From IMG/VR virus record IMGVR_UViG_2671181085_000003: a DNA stretch of 19,641 bases; one strand, 5' to 3'. This stretch comes from a virus (lineage: Duplodnaviria; Heunggongvirae; Uroviricota; Caudoviricetes). This document shows, piece after piece, positions 2,486-17,986 of the stretch (position 1 is its first letter; every line of letters begins with the position of its first letter). Under the pieces are notes generated by a model. It was not told the DNA's origin and did not search any database. It saw nothing but the letters and a program-made list of their open reading frames with translations. Position numbers and translations under genes: made by a program.

Positions 2486-5055
2486 CGCCCGCTCCCTGAT
2501 AACATACCGCCATCACGCAACTGCAGCCGGAGCTCATCCTGCGCCCCCTTGCGGGCCATGTCATACACCGCCTTCATCAGCTGCGGCCCCGCCTGTCCGT
2601 TGATACCGTCGTTCTGAATCACCACGTGATTGTTCTGATTAAAATTAATACCTTCCGCCCGCCGCATCTGCGCCGGACTTCCGGCACCACCCACATAACC
2701 ACCTTCCGCATAGCCGCGCATCAGGCGGTAAAGATTCCCCACACCTATCCGGCTGGTTGCCTCCTTCGTGAAGACAAACTCCCCGCGGTGAACTATCCCC
2801 GCAGGCTCATATTTGCCGCCCGTGCCCGTAAATCCGCCGGTCGCGAAATGAAAGTTCGCCGCCGCAGCCTGAATGGCCGTCCCCGTGGAGGCAGACGCCC
2901 CACCACCGAAAGCACCACCAATGGCGCTGCCGATACGCCCGACAATGCCCACCATGGCCTGTTTAAGCAGGATTTCTGTCATCATGGACAGCACCGAACG
3001 GGTGAATCCCCGCCAGTTCTGTTCGCTGCCGGTCAGCATCGCCGCCATATTCTGTGCAATACCATCAAAGGTCTGCGTGGCCACACTTTTAACCTGCGAA
3101 AAACTGTCCGTCGCACTTTCCGCCCACTCACCCCAGCCGGACTTCAGCCCGGCCAGCCAGTCACCGCGCAGCATGTCTTCATCCGCCCATGTCTGTTTCA
3201 GTGCCCCGGTGACCCGGGCCAGCGCCTGCGGATTATCGCCGTACACGTCACGAAGACGCTGCTCTTCAGACTCCCGCTGTGCCTGACGGTCGGTGAGACC
3301 ACGGGCTTTTGCGCTGATGGCGGCCTGCTTCGCGCTCTGTTGCTCTTCAAACCGTGCAGCCTGCTGTGCAAGTTCATTCAGGCGTTTCTGGTGCTCCACC
3401 TTGTCGCCCAGCTCAGCCAGCTGGCGTTTGTACTCCAGCGTTTCTTTCTCATGAGCCAGCAGGGATTTTTCCTGCCCGGATAACTGCCGTTTCGTGGCAG
3501 CCTCTTTCAGGACCGCATACTGACTTTCCGCTTTCCATAAATCACGGCGCTGCTGGCTGATTTTCTCATTCGCACCGCTGTGCTTCTCCAGCGTCCGGAG
3601 CTCAGTTTCAAGCGCCAGCAGGGCTGCATGCGCCCGGTCTTCCTGACGCTCACCGGCAGACACCTTCACACCGGACGGCTTTTTCAGCGTCGATTCATAA
3701 TCCTTTTTCGCCGACGCCATCAGCGTGTTGTAATCCGCCTGCAGGATTTTCCCGTCTCTCAGGGCCCTGTTCAGTTCTTCCTGACGGGCGGTATATTTCT
3801 CCAGCGGCGACAGCAGGCGTTCATACGCTTTCTGCGCCTCTCCGGTATACTTCAGCTGTGACGCCTCACGCTCAGCCCTGTCCCTTGCCGCCAGTTCACC
3901 GGCTTTTTCCATATCCGACTGCAGCGTTGCCGCCGCCAGCCCCAGACGGGCATTTTCCCGGTCATCCCATGCACCCTGAAGGTTGGCCCGGAAAGAGGAG
4001 GTTTTACCGCGGCGCTGGCTCCGGCTCTGGTACCACTGCCATTTTTTATCCGCTTCATCAAATGCCTTCTGCGCACTGGCGAGCATGTCCGCAGAAGATT
4101 CCGGACGACCGATATCCAGAATGGCATCCCACATCGATTTGAACGCCTTTCCTGTTTTATCCGCCCAGGTTTCCAGCGTCCCCATGTTCTCTTTCAGGCG
4201 GCGGGTCTGGTCATCAAAGCCTTTCGTGGCAATATCGTTCGCCGCCTGTAAGGCACCGGCCTCGTCTCCGGAACGCTGCAGCTGAGCAACATACGCAATC
4301 TGCTCTGCCGTCACGTTACGGAACTGGCGTGCCATCGCAGTCAGCCCCGACGTCGGGTCAGTGGTCAGTTTTCCGAAAGCCTCTGCAACCTTGTCCACCT
4401 CCACACCGGAGGCAGACGCAAAACGCGCCACACTCTGGTTAATGGCATCAAACTGTTCACCACCACGCACACCGGCACTGACCAGGGCTGCCAGTGACTC
4501 TCCCGCCTGGTTAAACGTCAGCCCTGCCGCCTGCCCGGCTCTGGAGAGCGTCAGCATGCGCTCTGCCGTCAGTCCTGACTGATTACCGGAAAGAACCAGG
4601 GTTTTATTAAACGCTGAAAGCGTGGAATCCCCCTGGTACCAGGCATACGCCAGCGCACCTGTCGCGGCGACCAGTGATGTGATCCCGACGGCAGGTAGCG
4701 AGACGGCTCCCGCCAGTCCCCGGAACATCGGGATAAGACCACCGAACGAGTCTTTCACCTGACCGCCCTGTTGCAGCAGGATGAGCCAGGGATTCTGACC
4801 ACCGGCAAGCTGCGTGGCAACGTCGGTGAACTGCATGGGTAGCATACGCATGGCGGCTTTATACTGCCCGACGGACATCCCGGCTTTTTGTGCAGCCAGC
4901 GCCTGGCGGCTCAGCCCCTGCTCAACAGCACTGGCGGTTTTTCTGGCGTCAGTCTCCAGTCCTGAAAAATGACGCCTTACGCGGGTCATCTGCTCATCGA
5001 AACGAACCGCATCCAGACTCAGGTCAATAACAAGATCACCAACCGGCTGGGACAT
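2482..5055 (-). CDS. H: Tail tape measure protein H
   Basis: 857-aa ORF (lambda gpH is about 853 aa); long alpha-helical Ala/Gln/Glu-rich middle region and Gly-rich C-terminal part typical of tape measure proteins; position between T and M. Confidence 0.9.
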   Translation of the reverse strand: MSQPVGDLVIDLSLDAVRFDEQMTRVRRHFSGLETDARKTASAVEQGLSRQALAAQKAGMSVGQYKAAMRMLPMQFTDVATQLAGGQNPWLILLQQGGQVKDSFGGLIPMFRGLAGAVSLPAVGITSLVAATGALAYAWYQGDSTLSAFNKTLVLSGNQSGLTAERMLTLSRAGQAAGLTFNQAGESLAALVSAGVRGGEQFDAINQSVARFASASGVEVDKVAEAFGKLTTDPTSGLTAMARQFRNVTAEQIAYVAQLQRSGDEAGALQAANDIATKGFDDQTRRLKENMGTLETWADKTGKAFKSMWDAILDIGRPESSADMLASAQKAFDEADKKWQWYQSRSQRRGKTSSFRANLQGAWDDRENARLGLAAATLQSDMEKAGELAARDRAEREASQLKYTGEAQKAYERLLSPLEKYTARQEELNRALRDGKILQADYNTLMASAKKDYESTLKKPSGVKVSAGERQEDRAHAALLALETELRTLEKHSGANEKISQQRRDLWKAESQYAVLKEAATKRQLSGQEKSLLAHEKETLEYKRQLAELGDKVEHQKRLNELAQQAARFEEQQSAKQAAISAKARGLTDRQAQRESEEQRLRDVYGDNPQALARVTGALKQTWADEDMLRGDWLAGLKSGWGEWAESATDSFSQVKSVATQTFDGIAQNMAAMLTGSEQNWRGFTRSVLSMMTEILLKQAMVGIVGRIGSAIGGAFGGGASASTGTAIQAAAANFHFATGGFTGTGGKYEPAGIVHRGEFVFTKEATSRIGVGNLYRLMRGYAEGGYVGGAGSPAQMRRAEGINFNQNNHVVIQNDGINGQAGPQLMKAVYDMARKGAQDELRLQLRDGGMLSGSGR

Positions 5056-5898
5056 ATCTCACACCTCCGGAAATCCCCGCTGAAGCCATCATTAATGCGA
5101 CATCATCCTCGCTGACATCCACCACATCCGCAGAAGGTGAAATATCGCCCCCTCCCTCCCCACCGAACCGGACGCCTCCGGCAAGTCCTGCCGCTTTCTG
5201 CATCAGCATGTCTTCCTCATCCGGCCTCTCCGTCTGCGCTTCCTCACGCCGGGGGACGAGCAGACTGAAATCCGAGGGATGCATATCCGGATCGCAAAAA
5301 AACAGGCTGAGTACGGCGTACGTCAGCCCGGAAAAATGCATATCCAGCTGGGTATCGTGAAAATAATGCGTGCGGTAAAAACGTCGCCAGTCGGCATATT
5401 CGGTGGATGTCATCCCGGCAAGCATGGCTCGCCAGTCGGCTCTCCCCATCTCACGCGCCAGTTTCAGGACAAAGTTCAGCTCGCCTTCGAATGCTTTTTT
5501 GATGTTACCGGCTCAGTCGCTTCTGCTTTCCCGGTTTGTTCAGGATCGGCATCGTGCCGGTTATCCAGCATACCTGAAAGATAAAGCACCCGGTTCGTTG
5601 CCTGATTCAGTGCATCAGCAGGCCATCCCAGCATCACTTCACGGCGGATCTGCTGCATCTCTGTCTCCGGAGAGGCCAGAGTGCCTTTGAGGGAATGGGA
5701 ATGCCATAGCGACATCGCCACAAGCAGGGATGCCGTTTCCAGATATCGCTGGTTAATGTGCACGGCATCATGCTCCGTTGTCTCCTGTTGTGCTGCGTCT
5801 GAAACAAACTTCATATAATCAAACCGCTGCAGCGCAGACAGCTCCGACAGCGTGACGGACACCCCGTTATATTCAAATTGTTCTGTTTTCAGGAACAT
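5036..5898 (-). CDS. T: Tail assembly chaperone G-T fusion, made by programmed -1 ribosomal frameshift
   Basis: The T frame (5036..5512 open) is -1 relative to G and overlaps the G 3' end; slippery heptamer A_AAA_AAG at 5494-5500 (minus strand) sits in the correct register at G codons 134-135. Predicted fusion is about 287 aa. Confidence 0.7.
5476..5898 (-). CDS. G: Tail assembly chaperone G
   Basis: Start at internal ATG (MFLKTEQFEYNGVSVTLSELSALQ...), giving 140 aa, the lambda gpG length; the ORF-track start upstream at 6012 is rejected. Confidence 0.8.
   Translation of the reverse strand: MFLKTEQFEYNGVSVTLSELSALQRFDYMKFVSDAAQQETTEHDAVHINQRYLETASLLVAMSLWHSHSLKGTLASPETEMQQIRREVMLGWPADALNQATNRVLYLSGMLDNRHDADPEQTGKAEATEPVTSKKHSKAS
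5494..5500 (-). other. -1 programmed frameshift slippery heptamer A_AAA_AAG
   Basis: Zero-frame reading TC-A AAA AAG (Ser-Lys-Lys) in G; the -1 frame reads AAA AAA and continues open into T. Confidence 0.65.
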
Positions 5899-15635: not shown

Positions 15636-15735
15636 CATGTCCGGTTCACATGCCCATTTTTTGCGCATGTCCGGTTCACAGAAGACCTGTTTTTATATTT
15701 TTCATATAGTTAACTTGCAGAGAAACCGGACATGG
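15636..15735. promoter_or_regulatory. cosB-like terminase binding region with three R elements
   Basis: CATGTCCGGTTCACA at 15636-15650 and 15666-15680 (direct, 30 bp apart) plus an inverted copy AACCGGACATGG at about 15722-15735, separated by an AT-rich stretch (15681-15720). This mirrors the lambda R1/R2-bend-R3 layout but with different repeat sequence. Confidence 0.65.
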
Positions 15736-15783: not shown

Positions 15784-16006
15784 CGTAACGGTCTGGATCA
15801 CCGGAAAGGACCCGCCAACGACTTTCGCGTGCAGGCATTAAAAATTTTGCAGTTCCATGCCTAGTTGAAACCTCGATTTCTATAACATCCAATTTTGTAA
15901 ATTTAGATATAGCTCAACTTTTCCCAATGTTTTCAATTGTATAAAAACAATTGGCGTTACGCTATAACACTATACTTAGAATAAGTAAAGATTTTAAGGA
16001 GTTTTA

Positions 16007-17074
16007 ATGAGTCAACATCAATATTATCCACAGCTGAAATGGAAGCCTGCTGAATATGAATCTCTGATGCTTTTAGATCAAACTACGCTCTCTGGTTTTA
16101 CTCCGATCATTACCATTCCAGACATAGACTGGGATTATGAAAACGAATGCTACAAGAAGAGTTTGAGTTCTTACTTATCTGACTTCGGTATTAACCTTGC
16201 GGCATCCTGGAAAGCCAATCGTCCTGTTTTGCTGGATGTTAAATATTTAGATAAACATGGTTCGAGCCGCCATCATCCTCTAGATATGTGTATCCAAGAT
16301 GCTAGAGTAAATGGTAAGGAAATTATCCCTGTTGTTTCTCCCACATATTCAACAAACTATATACATGCTGTTCAACGCAACTTAATCAATGGGCTCGCTA
16401 TATCTATCACCCCCCAGACATGGCACCAATTCACAAGTCTGGTTAACCACTTAAATATTCATCCTAGTTTAATTGATGTAATCATTGATTTTGGAGATAT
16501 TCAAAACGCAACTGATAGTTTAAAACAACAAGCATTAAGCATGGTCAACACATTATCAGGCCAAGCTCCGTGGAGAAACTTGATTTTATCTTCAACCGCA
16601 TACCCGGCATCACAGGCAGGGATACCGCAACATCAAGTTCATCATATTCCGCGCCATGAATACGATCTTTGGATGTACGTAGTACAGAATTTTAGCAATG
16701 GAAGAACGCCAAGTTTTAGTGATTATCCCACCGCTAGCTCTACCATTACGAGCGTAGACCCACGCTTCATGTCTCAGTATGTCTCAGTGAGATATTCGAA
16801 CGATACCTCATGGATCTTTGTAAAAGGTACCGCAGTTAAAGGAAATGGATGGGGCCAAACTAAAAACTTATGTACTACCCTTGTTAGTTCGCCAGAGTAT
16901 CAAGTCTTTGGCTCCAAATTTAGTTGGGGGGATGATTACATTTACCAAAGATCATTAGGCGCTAACAAATCTGGCGGCTCTAAAGAATGGCGTAAAGTTG
17001 CACATACGCACCATATTACGTTAGTCGTGAGACAGCTTTATTGGTTGGCGCAGACTCAGCCTGCCAAGCCTTAA
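16007..17074 (+). CDS. Hypothetical protein, 355 aa, no recognisable motif (accessory island gene 1)
   Basis: ATG preceded by AAGGAG with about 5-nt spacing; about 38% GC in a sample versus GC-rich flanks; opposite strand to all phage late genes. Confidence 0.7.
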   Translation: MSQHQYYPQLKWKPAEYESLMLLDQTTLSGFTPIITIPDIDWDYENECYKKSLSSYLSDFGINLAASWKANRPVLLDVKYLDKHGSSRHHPLDMCIQDARVNGKEIIPVVSPTYSTNYIHAVQRNLINGLAISITPQTWHQFTSLVNHLNIHPSLIDVIIDFGDIQNATDSLKQQALSMVNTLSGQAPWRNLILSSTAYPASQAGIPQHQVHHIPRHEYDLWMYVVQNFSNGRTPSFSDYPTASSTITSVDPRFMSQYVSVRYSNDTSWIFVKGTAVKGNGWGQTKNLCTTLVSSPEYQVFGSKFSWGDDYIYQRSLGANKSGGSKEWRKVAHTHHITLVVRQLYWLAQTQPAKP

Positions 17075-17636
17075 CTTTCCAGCCTACGCGTTTCTTTAAG
17101 GCTGTTCTGACTTCAAGCCTGAGATTCGCCATTGGAATATTTTCCGCAATAATATTCCATAACTCAAATCGGGGCTTGCTTTTGATTCCTTTGGAATAGC
17201 CCCATCGTTCAAGTACGTCGATACATTCATCTTTCCAAAGCAATTGAGCGAGCATCAATGTGTCATGGTTTCGATTAAGCTTTTCTCCACGCATGTGCTT
17301 TATAAGAATGGCGCCTTTTGACCCAACAGAAACCGTTTTAACGCCCCACCAACCTGGGATTAACTTTAATGCTCCCTCAAGATGTTTCTCAGCTACGACA
17401 AGAGTAACCTTGTCCATTACAGAAGAATAATGCTTGATTTGAAGAGGCAAACGCTCCAAAGAGTCATATTCACTTTTGAGCTCGTACCCGTGTATAACAC
17501 CATTTATTACAGCAATGTCTGCTCTACTGGCGCCAAGGGATATGGAAAATTCATCGACCACAAGGCAGTCTGGATCTAAATGCGATTCTTTCAAAAGCTT
17601 ATGATGCACCGCGAACCTAACATCTTGATCTTTCAT
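17016..17636 (-). CDS. Hypothetical protein, 206 aa, predicted PD-(D/E)xK-fold nuclease-like (accessory island gene 2)
   Basis: ATG preceded by AAGGAG with 5-nt spacing; N-terminal region reads CLVVDEFSISLGASRADIAVINGVIHGYELKSE, a hydrophobic-D ... E-x-K arrangement typical of PD-(D/E)xK nucleases. AT-rich. Confidence 0.7.
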   Translation of the reverse strand: MKDQDVRFAVHHKLLKESHLDPDCLVVDEFSISLGASRADIAVINGVIHGYELKSEYDSLERLPLQIKHYSSVMDKVTLVVAEKHLEGALKLIPGWWGVKTVSVGSKGAILIKHMRGEKLNRNHDTLMLAQLLWKDECIDVLERWGYSKGIKSKPRFELWNIIAENIPMANLRLEVRTALKKRVGWKVKAWQAESAPTNKAVSRLT

Positions 17637-17664
17637 GACTTCTCCTTACTCCCTCCGTTATTGA

Positions 17665-17693
17665 ATTATAGCGCACTGCATTTTACTGCATTT
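17665..17693 (-). promoter_or_regulatory. Candidate sigma70 promoter for island gene 2, overlapped by a tandem direct repeat
   Basis: Perfect TATAAT -10 on the minus strand (plus coordinates 17665-17670) about 28 nt upstream of the ATG; -35 is weak; a 10-bp element ACTGCATTT(T) occurs twice in tandem at 17675-17693. Confidence 0.4.
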
Positions 17694-17986
17694 GAGAGAT
17701 TTGACCACTTCAATCACAAAATGCTTATCTGCAGCAACAAGATTCATAGCCATACGACTATGGTGATTACCTTTTGTCTGGAAAACTGACCATTCCACGA
17801 AGATCAGATAGGTCTATAGAATCTTGGTTTGTCATAGCGTTCGCCTTACTTTGAGATGAACCTTTGCTGCATAGGAGATCAGCCCGTCAAGGCTCACCAG
17901 CACTAACTGACTACTCAAAGGCTCATTCCAAAGGGTTTGGTTCGACGTGGTTGAGTGCGCTGCGATGCGCGGTGAAATACCTGTAC

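What the first reader, a model, noticed from the sequence alone, without database searches (positions are those of the whole stretch)
17016..17636. Island gene 2 has a PD-(D/E)xK nuclease-like core motif
The N-terminal region reads CLVVDEFSISLGASRADIAVINGVIHGYELKSEYD. A hydrophobic beta-strand ending in Asp (RADIAV) followed about 13 residues later by a hydrophobic strand carrying E-L-K is the signature spacing of the PD-(D/E)xK restriction-endonuclease-like fold, with an acidic residue upstream (VVDE). At 206 aa it would be a compact stand-alone nuclease, a plausible effector of a defence or toxin module.
Basis: partly seen in the sequence, partly recalled or inferred. Interest (0 to 1): 0.6.

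Follow-up and report, generated by a model that had tools for sequence, protein, structure and literature searches.

The report
Phage P4 cII-type nuclease gene
The gene encodes a restriction-enzyme-like (PD-(D/E)xK) nuclease of the phage P4 cII / "sce7726" family, always paired tail-to-tail with a TIM-barrel "Beta" protein gene; here the pair is a two-gene, gop-less relative of a known anti-phage system, carried as cargo in a lambda-like prophage.

Summary

The protein is not an orphan. It belongs to NCBIfam sce7726 / Pfam Phage_P4_cII and is 27% identical to P4 cII. Its convergent neighbour (16007-17074, +) is a Pfam Beta_protein, predicted to be a TIM barrel. P4 gop-beta-cII is a published defence system against lambda and P1, and Beta-like PD-lambda-2C is required for PD-lambda-2 defence.

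The window has no gop. The 2.0-kb low-GC island (15816-17831) holds only the pair.

- In 78 of 79 testable genome loci from many phyla, and 64 of 64 viral loci, the two genes are convergent.
- In 33 of 34 lineages their 3' ends overlap (median 53 nt; 59 nt here).
- At least 22 loci add PD-lambda-2 A/B upstream of Beta.

Verdict: a gop-less variant of a known defence family. The nuclease fold is well supported; the effector role and any antisense control are inferred. Interest is moderate.

The parts
17016..17636 (-). sce7726 / P4 cII-family gene (206 aa), predicted PD-(D/E)xK nuclease
17289..17564 (-). Nuclease core, residues 25-116 (beta1-beta2-beta3-alpha-beta-alpha-beta-beta). Candidate catalytic codons: E29 (17550-17552), D40 (17517-17519), E52 (17481-17483), K54 (17475-17477), Q66 (17439-17441), Y70 (17427-17429).
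   Evidence: Secondary structure of the model. Conservation: E29, E52, K54 and Q66 151/151, D40 150/151, Y70 144/151.
17079..17279 (-). C-terminal helical domain, residues ~120-186, with conserved N121, W134, E137, R183 and W186. It may bind nucleic acid.
17016..17074 (.). 59-nt overlap of the 3' ends of the two convergent genes. It encodes the non-conserved tail of the nuclease and the last 19 residues plus stop of Beta.
   Evidence: ORF coordinates. Overlap is present in 75 of 77 genome loci and 33 of 34 lineages below 60% identity, median 53 nt. No terminator-like site lies between the genes.
16007..17074 (+). Beta-family gene (355 aa), the obligate partner, predicted TIM barrel
17637..17728 (-). 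Upstream region of the nuclease gene that travels with the cassette. It holds the Shine-Dalgarno (17641-17646) and a promoter-like site (17680-17707).
   Evidence: Similarity to cassettes in Edwardsiella, Klebsiella, Pantoea and Pectobacterium extends to about 17693-17742. Promoter-like TGGTCA-16-TAAAAT, a consensus match only. Sequence.
15816..17831 (.). Low-GC cargo island holding only the two genes, inserted between the Rz lysis gene and cos/terminase small subunit of a lambdoid prophage
   Evidence: Phage backbone homology stops at 15815 and resumes at 17832. GC is 0.38-0.44 against about 0.55. Another phage carries an anti-repressor gene and a hypothetical gene in this slot.

Best explanation
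The gene encodes a catalytically competent PD-(D/E)xK nuclease of the phage P4 cII (sce7726, Pfam Phage_P4_cII) family. It has an N-terminal nuclease core with candidate catalytic residues E29, D40, E52 and K54, a QxxxY helix, and a small C-terminal helical domain. It works as an obligate two-gene unit with the convergent Beta gene, a TIM-barrel protein with enzyme-like invariant acidic residues. In this window the pair is a gop-less, two-gene version of the P4 gop-beta-cII anti-phage system. It is carried as a moron in the variable slot between the lysis genes and cos/terminase of a lambdoid prophage, where it most likely protects the lysogen against other phages. Proposed mechanism (inferred, not shown): the nuclease is the DNA-cutting effector and Beta controls or licenses it. 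Because the two genes overlap at their 3' ends with no terminator between them, their transcripts must be partly antisense. That offers a way to balance their expression.
For: Shown by computation:
- Family membership.
- Conservation of E29, D40, E52, K54, Q66 and Y70 across 151 cluster representatives.
- Obligate pairing with Beta: 78 of 79 testable genome loci from Proteobacteria, Bacillota, Bacteroidota, Acidobacteriota, Patescibacteria and others, 64 of 64 viral loci found from the Beta side, and plasmids.
- The same beta-right, cII-left orientation in P4 itself.
- Island anatomy and its occurrence in 124 of 5426 complete E. coli genomes.

From the literature:
- P4 gop-beta-cII protects against lambda and P1 (PMC9122126).
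Against: - No experiment assigns a role to cII within gop-beta-cII. The published toxin is Gop, with Beta as its antidote, and gop is absent here.
- The bare Beta-cII pair has not been tested for defence in any paper I could find.
- The PD-lambda-2 clone that gave defence extends only 396 nt beyond gene C. If that strain has a convergent cII-like gene, it was truncated and so was dispensable there.
- The historical name cII points to a regulatory phenotype in P4 (my recollection of Ghisotti 1990; the paper was not available).
- Antisense regulation rests only on gene geometry and the absence of predicted terminators.
Confidence: 0.6

Rival explanations
1. The protein is a DNA-binding regulator that uses the nuclease fold and C-terminal helical domain to bind DNA without cutting, as its P4 name cII suggests. 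Beta would then be the functional protein.
For: Several database names call homologues 'regulatory protein'. A C-terminal helical domain is present. In PD-lambda-2, defence was obtained with a clone that cannot contain an intact convergent gene.
Against: All four catalytic-type residues plus Q66 and Y70 are conserved across 151 clusters at 50% identity or less. That pattern is typical of active enzymes. Non-catalytic PD-(D/E)xK derivatives usually lose these residues (general knowledge).
Confidence: 0.15
2. The pair is a restriction-modification-like system. The Beta TIM barrel chemically alters DNA (or a nucleotide pool) to mark self, and the nuclease cuts unmarked DNA. Convergent genes are a common R-M layout.
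Confidence: 0.1
3. It is a phage DNA-metabolism or repair nuclease (MmcB-like or resolvase-like) serving the prophage's own replication or recombination, not defence.
For: The closest structure is 3dnx, DUF1052, the MmcB-like family. One homologue is named 'DNA repair protein MmcB-like'. DUF1052 was linked to archaeal Holliday junction resolvases (PMC1189080).
Against: No Pfam PF06319 hit even at E up to 1. The gene sits in a low-GC accessory island present in only 124 of 5426 E. coli genomes, and in different slots of different elements. It is non-essential in P4. Strict linkage to Beta and frequent linkage to toxin modules fit conflict systems.
Confidence: 0.1
4. The motif is a chance match in an unrelated protein.
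For: The loose pattern arises in 2-5% of shuffled sequences.
Confidence: 0.01

Closest known systems
Phage P4 gop-beta-cII anti-phage system (Rousset et al. 2022, PMC9122126; DefenseFinder/PADLOC 'gop_beta_cll')
   Same: There are homologues of both beta (22% identity, same 355-aa length) and cII (27% identity, catalytic-type residues kept). The beta-right, cII-left convergent layout is the same. Both are carried as non-essential cargo next to cos of a mobile element.
   Different: There is no gop gene or remnant. Here the 3' ends overlap by 59 nt, whereas in P4 they are 27 nt apart with an annotated terminator. P4 cII has an extra ~60-residue C-terminal extension (264 against 206 aa). The host element is a lambdoid prophage, not a P4-like satellite.
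PD-lambda-2 (Vassallo et al. 2022, PMC9519451)
   Same: Its third component is a Beta-family protein, and the window's Beta hits PADLOC PD-Lambda-2_C at E 4.3e-32. In at least 22 genome loci, HigB-like A and HTH-peptidase B sit directly upstream of a Beta gene that is convergent with an sce7726 gene.
   Different: The window has no HigB-like or Xre/IrrE genes. The published system is described as three genes, with no nuclease.
DUF1052 / MmcB-like family (PF06319, PDB 3dnx)
   Different: There is no sequence-profile match. DUF1052 lacks the C-terminal helical domain (146 aa against 206 aa), and the PD-(D/E)XK survey does not list Beta among its co-occurring genes (PMC3424549).
RecB/Cas4-type PD-(D/E)xK nucleases
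   Same: D...ExK is followed by an invariant Q66 and a 95%-conserved Y70 (QxxxY) in the next helix. I recall this as the RecB-family motif (Aravind et al. 2000; own knowledge, not checked here).

Membership tests
PD-(D/E)xK nuclease superfamily | alpha-beta-beta-beta-alpha-beta core fold | tested here: met
PD-(D/E)xK nuclease superfamily | Acidic residue at the start of beta2 and (D/E)xK on beta3, conserved in the family | tested here: met
   D40 lies on beta2 and E52-L-K54 on beta3. Conservation is 150/151, 151/151 and 151/151.
PD-(D/E)xK nuclease superfamily | Metal-dependent phosphodiester cleavage | not testable with these tools
   Needs biochemistry.
sce7726 family (NCBIfam NF033832) / Pfam PF26915 Phage_P4_cII | Profile score above the curated cutoff over the full length | tested here: met
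   185.7 bits against a cutoff of 70, residues 1-183 matching profile positions 1-182 of 184. PF26915 is precomputed on the 99%-identical P0001 and named.
gop-beta-cII defence system | cII homologue | tested here: met
   PADLOC 'cll' E 2.2e-31. BLASTP to P4 cII E 9e-19.
gop-beta-cII defence system | beta homologue adjacent and convergent | tested here: met
   PF14350 E 7.8e-56. The layout is the same as in NC_001609.
gop-beta-cII defence system | gop gene upstream of beta | tested here: not met
   tblastn with P4 Gop gives no hit better than E 0.68, and none near the island. No plus-strand ORF of 20 aa or more lies between 15760 and 16006.
gop-beta-cII defence system | Protection against phage infection | not testable with these tools
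   Needs plaque assays.
PD-lambda-2 | HigB-like toxin (A) and Xre-HTH/IrrE peptidase (B) upstream of the Beta-like C | tested here: not met
   The island holds only two genes. A and B were found in other loci such as L031, but not here.
DUF1052 / MmcB-like (PF06319) | Pfam profile match | tested here: not met
   No Pfam family at E up to 1. The resemblance is structural only.
Type II restriction-modification | Cognate DNA methyltransferase next to the endonuclease | tested here: not met
   The partner is a TIM-barrel Beta protein with no methyltransferase domain.

The most novel reading that the evidence does not exclude
The Beta (TIM-barrel enzyme) plus cII (nuclease) pair may be the ancient, self-sufficient core of one large cross-phylum defence superfamily. 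In this reading, gop-beta-cII and PD-lambda-2 are the same core with different toxin modules bolted on (Gop; HigB plus Xre/IrrE peptidase; an HTH-S24 peptidase). The bare pair, as in this prophage, would be a complete anti-phage system that current detection tools miss. The near-universal 3' overlap of the convergent genes would be a built-in antisense switch setting the nuclease-to-Beta ratio.
Probability: 0.3. Interest if true: 0.7.

Novelty: new variant of a known kind. Interest (0 to 1): 0.45.

Why it matters
The mechanism of gop-beta-cII and the role of PD-lambda-2C are unknown. If cII is an active PD-(D/E)xK nuclease, there is a concrete candidate effector with point mutants to test (D40, E52, K54). 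If the Beta-cII pair is the conserved core, two published systems become one family. The family is large: 5,661 clusters at 50% identity at E <= 0.001, and 1,388 at E <= 1e-30. I expect the bare pair to be missed by rules that require gop or PD-lambda-2 A/B (my inference; the detection rules were not run here). It occurs in 124 of 5,426 complete E. coli genomes in this slot alone. The conserved convergent overlap also offers a tractable case for studying antisense control of a conflict system.

Tried and rejected
- Pfam scan of the 206-aa protein found nothing at E up to 1, because the local copy lacks PF26915.
- Sequence and profile searches of the PDB gave only noise, such as TAF1 and PTK2B at E > 0.1.
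- The afdb50 fold library was unavailable.
- A gop remnant was sought by tblastn and an ORF listing, with no result.
- No nucleotide similarity to the P4 left end.
- No Rfam family in the island.
- Promoter and terminator scans were at or below shuffle expectation, so the promoter-like site upstream of the nuclease gene is only a lead.
- Ghisotti et al. 1990 could not be read, so P4 cII phenotypes are cited from memory or through Rousset 2022.
- The diverse Beta alignment A2 was too divergent for a collection scan; A3 was used instead.
- I tried to learn whether the original PD-lambda-2 strain (ECOR42) has a convergent cII-like gene. Only the clone coordinates were available. The two best plasmid matches to the IrrE-like protein that I opened were HigB-IrrE pairs without Beta, so the question stays open.
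- Specific enzyme families for Beta were rejected because all TIM-barrel hits are generic.

Full report
**1. The observation**

The minus-strand ORF 17016-17636 starts with ATG and encodes 206 aa containing the quoted peptide. A strong Shine-Dalgarno (AAGGAG, 17641-17646 on the minus strand) precedes the start. Homologues begin at the same residues.

On its own the motif is weak. A loose version occurs in 4.5% of shuffles of the protein, and a stricter version with the upstream Glu in 2.4%. Among the window's 65 ORFs of at least 100 aa it occurs only here.

**2. What the protein is**

- It matches NCBIfam NF033832 'sce7726 family' over its full conserved length (E 7.5e-55, 185.7 bits against a cutoff of 70).
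- It matches the PADLOC 'cll' model of the gop-beta-cll system (E 2.2e-31) and PHROG 984.
- Database relatives carry Pfam PF26915, named Phage_P4_cII.
- It is 27% identical to P4 cII over about 195 residues (E 9e-19), and P4 cII keeps the D and E-x-K. RefSeq itself annotates P4 cII as 'sce7726 family protein'.
- The family is large. A profile search of 1.84 billion cluster representatives found 5,661 at E <= 0.001, 3,700 at E <= 1e-10 and 1,388 at E <= 1e-30.

**3. Fold and active site**

An AlphaFold2 model built from a 45-sequence alignment has mean pLDDT 92.4 and pTM 0.85. Its element order is H3-18, E25-32, E37-45, E47-54, H63-73, E76-82, H83-92, E98-104, E110-116. Four helices follow (126-182), then a low-confidence tail.

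This is the alpha-beta-beta-beta-alpha-beta PD-(D/E)xK core. E29 lies on beta1, D40 on beta2 and E52-x-K54 on beta3.

Conservation across 151 sequences from different 50%-identity clusters:

| Residue | Conserved |
|---|---|
| E29, E52, K54, D58, R62, Q66, E137, R183 | 151/151 |
| D40 | 150/151 |
| Y70 | 144/151 |

Q66-x-x-x-Y70 in the helix after beta3 resembles the RecB/Cas4-type motif. That comparison rests on my own knowledge and was not verified here.

I could not inspect side-chain geometry because model coordinates are not exposed.

**4. The partner and the locus**

The convergent neighbour, 16007-17074 (+), 355 aa, is a full-length Pfam Beta_protein (PF14350, E 7.8e-56). It is 22% identical to P4 beta, which is also 355 aa. 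It also hits PADLOC PD-Lambda-2_C.

P4 has the same layout, gop-beta on one strand and cII convergent. No gop exists here. tblastn with Gop finds nothing, and no plus-strand ORF of 20 aa or more lies between 15760 and 16006.

**5. The island**

- GC falls to 0.38-0.44 between about 15500 and 18000, against about 0.55 elsewhere.
- Homology to lambdoid phage backbones stops at 15815 and resumes at 17832. The island is therefore about 2.0 kb and holds only the two genes.
- It lies between the Rz-type lysis gene and cos/terminase small subunit. Phage IdasGreatGrand carries an anti-repressor gene and a hypothetical gene in this slot.
- The stretch shared at about 75% nucleotide identity with Edwardsiella, Klebsiella, Pantoea and Pectobacterium runs only from about 15994 to about 17728. 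That is the two ORFs plus about 90 nt upstream of the nuclease gene.
- The whole segment is present in 124 of 5,426 complete E. coli genomes, always annotated 'beta family protein | sce7726 family protein'.
- It is absent from deposited phage genomes, but common in IMG/VR viral contigs.

**6. Conserved architecture (new here)**

I took 80 genome loci retrieved with the nuclease alignment. They span Enterobacterales, Vibrionales, Alpha- and Betaproteobacteria, Myxococcota, Bacillota, Bacteroidota, Acidobacteriota, Nitrospirota, Elusimicrobiota, Atribacterota and many Patescibacteria.

- 77 had a Beta-family ORF convergent with the nuclease gene.
- One more was recovered after allowing for Ns. 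One locus is cut by a contig end. One (L009, Xenorhabdus koppenhoeferi) truly lacks Beta in the 2.8 kb held downstream.
- That gives 78 of 79 testable loci.
- The 3' ends overlap in 75 of 77 loci, and in 33 of 34 lineages sharing less than 60% identity (median 53 nt, interquartile range 41-81).
- Searching from the Beta side in viral contigs, all 64 loci with enough flanking DNA had the convergent nuclease gene. 61 of those overlap, and Beta identities go down to 22%.
- RefSeq-annotated plasmids show the same layout.

The overlap mostly covers the non-conserved, low-pLDDT tail of the nuclease and the last helix of Beta. No terminator-like site lies between the genes, and there is no Rfam family.

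**7. Variable add-ons**

In at least 22 loci, two further genes sit directly upstream of Beta on its strand. One is a HigB-type toxin (PADLOC PD-Lambda-2_A, E 9.6e-41; Pfam HigB_toxin). The other is an HTH plus M78/IrrE peptidase (PD-Lambda-2_B, E 1.8e-150). These loci amount to PD-lambda-2 A-B-C plus a convergent cII-like nuclease.

Other loci have an HTH-S24 peptidase or small coiled-coil proteins in that position. By my count from the listing, roughly half have no tightly linked co-directional gene upstream of Beta. These bare pairs include ones in P4-like primase elements of Enterobacteriaceae and in the nin region of an E. coli phage-plasmid.

HigB-IrrE pairs also exist without Beta, so the modules are separable.

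**8. What is known experimentally**

P4 gop-beta-cII, cloned with its native promoter, protects E. coli against lambda and P1. Gop is toxic without Beta (PMC9122126).

In PD-lambda-2, B is toxic, A neutralises it, and the Beta-like C is required for defence (PMC9519451). That clone extends only 396 nt past gene C, too short for an intact convergent nuclease gene, if the strain has one.

I found no paper that assigns a fold or role to cII/sce7726. The term sce7726 appears only in six papers unrelated to defence mechanism. The large PD-(D/E)XK survey does not mention cII.

**9. Mechanism**

- Shown: fold, conserved catalytic-type residues, obligate pairing, convergent overlap, mobile-element cargo status, and homology to two validated defence systems.
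- Inferred: that the protein cleaves nucleic acid, that it is the effector, that Beta regulates or licenses it, that the bare pair is sufficient for defence, and that the overlap causes antisense regulation.

Rivals are a non-cutting regulator, an R-M-like pair, and a phage repair nuclease. They are weighed in the rival-explanations section of this report. The conservation of the catalytic set argues most strongly against the regulator-only reading.

**10. Verdict**

The gene is nevertheless already a named family member and a homologue of a component of a known system. What is new is the gop-less two-gene form in a lambdoid prophage, the evidence that cII is a bona fide PD-(D/E)xK protein, the cross-phylum convergent-overlap architecture, and the link between gop-beta-cII and PD-lambda-2. 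I rate it a new variant of a known kind, interest 0.45.

Noticed in passing
window 17016-17074; loci L003-L082 and L083-L148: The 3' ends of the nuclease gene and the Beta gene overlap in nearly every lineage examined (33 of 34 lineages, median 53 nt), across many bacterial phyla and in viral contigs. Long convergent overlaps conserved this widely are unusual and suggest antisense coupling.
   Followed up: partly
window 16007-17074: The Beta protein, called an 'antitoxin' in the literature, is predicted with high confidence to be a TIM barrel with conserved Asp, Arg and His residues. It looks like an enzyme rather than a simple binding antidote. No specific enzyme family could be assigned.
   Followed up: partly
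L031:5001-8122, L158:746-4106 and about 20 other loci: PD-lambda-2-type genes A (HigB-like) and B (HTH-IrrE peptidase) sit upstream of Beta, with a convergent sce7726/cII nuclease gene as a fourth, undescribed neighbour. The published PD-lambda-2 clone ends 396 nt past gene C, so it could not include such a gene intact.
   Followed up: partly
window 16051-16074 and 17449-17472: A 24-nt inverted repeat (79% complementary) lies in the 5' parts of the two convergent genes. By my translation, it makes both proteins carry a similar peptide: EYESLMLL in Beta (E16 and L20 conserved) and EYDSLERL in the nuclease (D58, L60, R62, L63 conserved). It may be chance.
   Followed up: no
window 15934-15953: A perfect palindrome, CAATTG-N8-CAATTG, lies about 55 nt upstream of the Beta start, in island DNA not shared with cassettes from other genera. 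It could be an operator or part of a promoter region.
   Followed up: no
window 15636-15650 and 15666-15680: Two identical 15-nt direct repeats (CATGTCCGGTTCACA), 30 nt apart, lie just upstream of the terminase small-subunit gene. They may be terminase-binding (cosB-type) sites.
   Followed up: no
L157 (E. coli plasmid pSTEC1024_3, CP061267.1 36334-37969): A second, divergent Beta-sce7726 pair (41-nt overlap, no gop) sits in a different phage slot, between a replisome-organizer gene on one side and hok, DUF968, RusA and an antiterminator on the other. The bare pair has therefore been acquired more than once by E. coli phage-like elements.
   Followed up: partly
L009 (Xenorhabdus koppenhoeferi, 5001-5567): This is the only testable locus where the sce7726 gene has no Beta gene in the 2.8 kb downstream, making it a possible natural orphan or a decayed cassette.
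   Followed up: no
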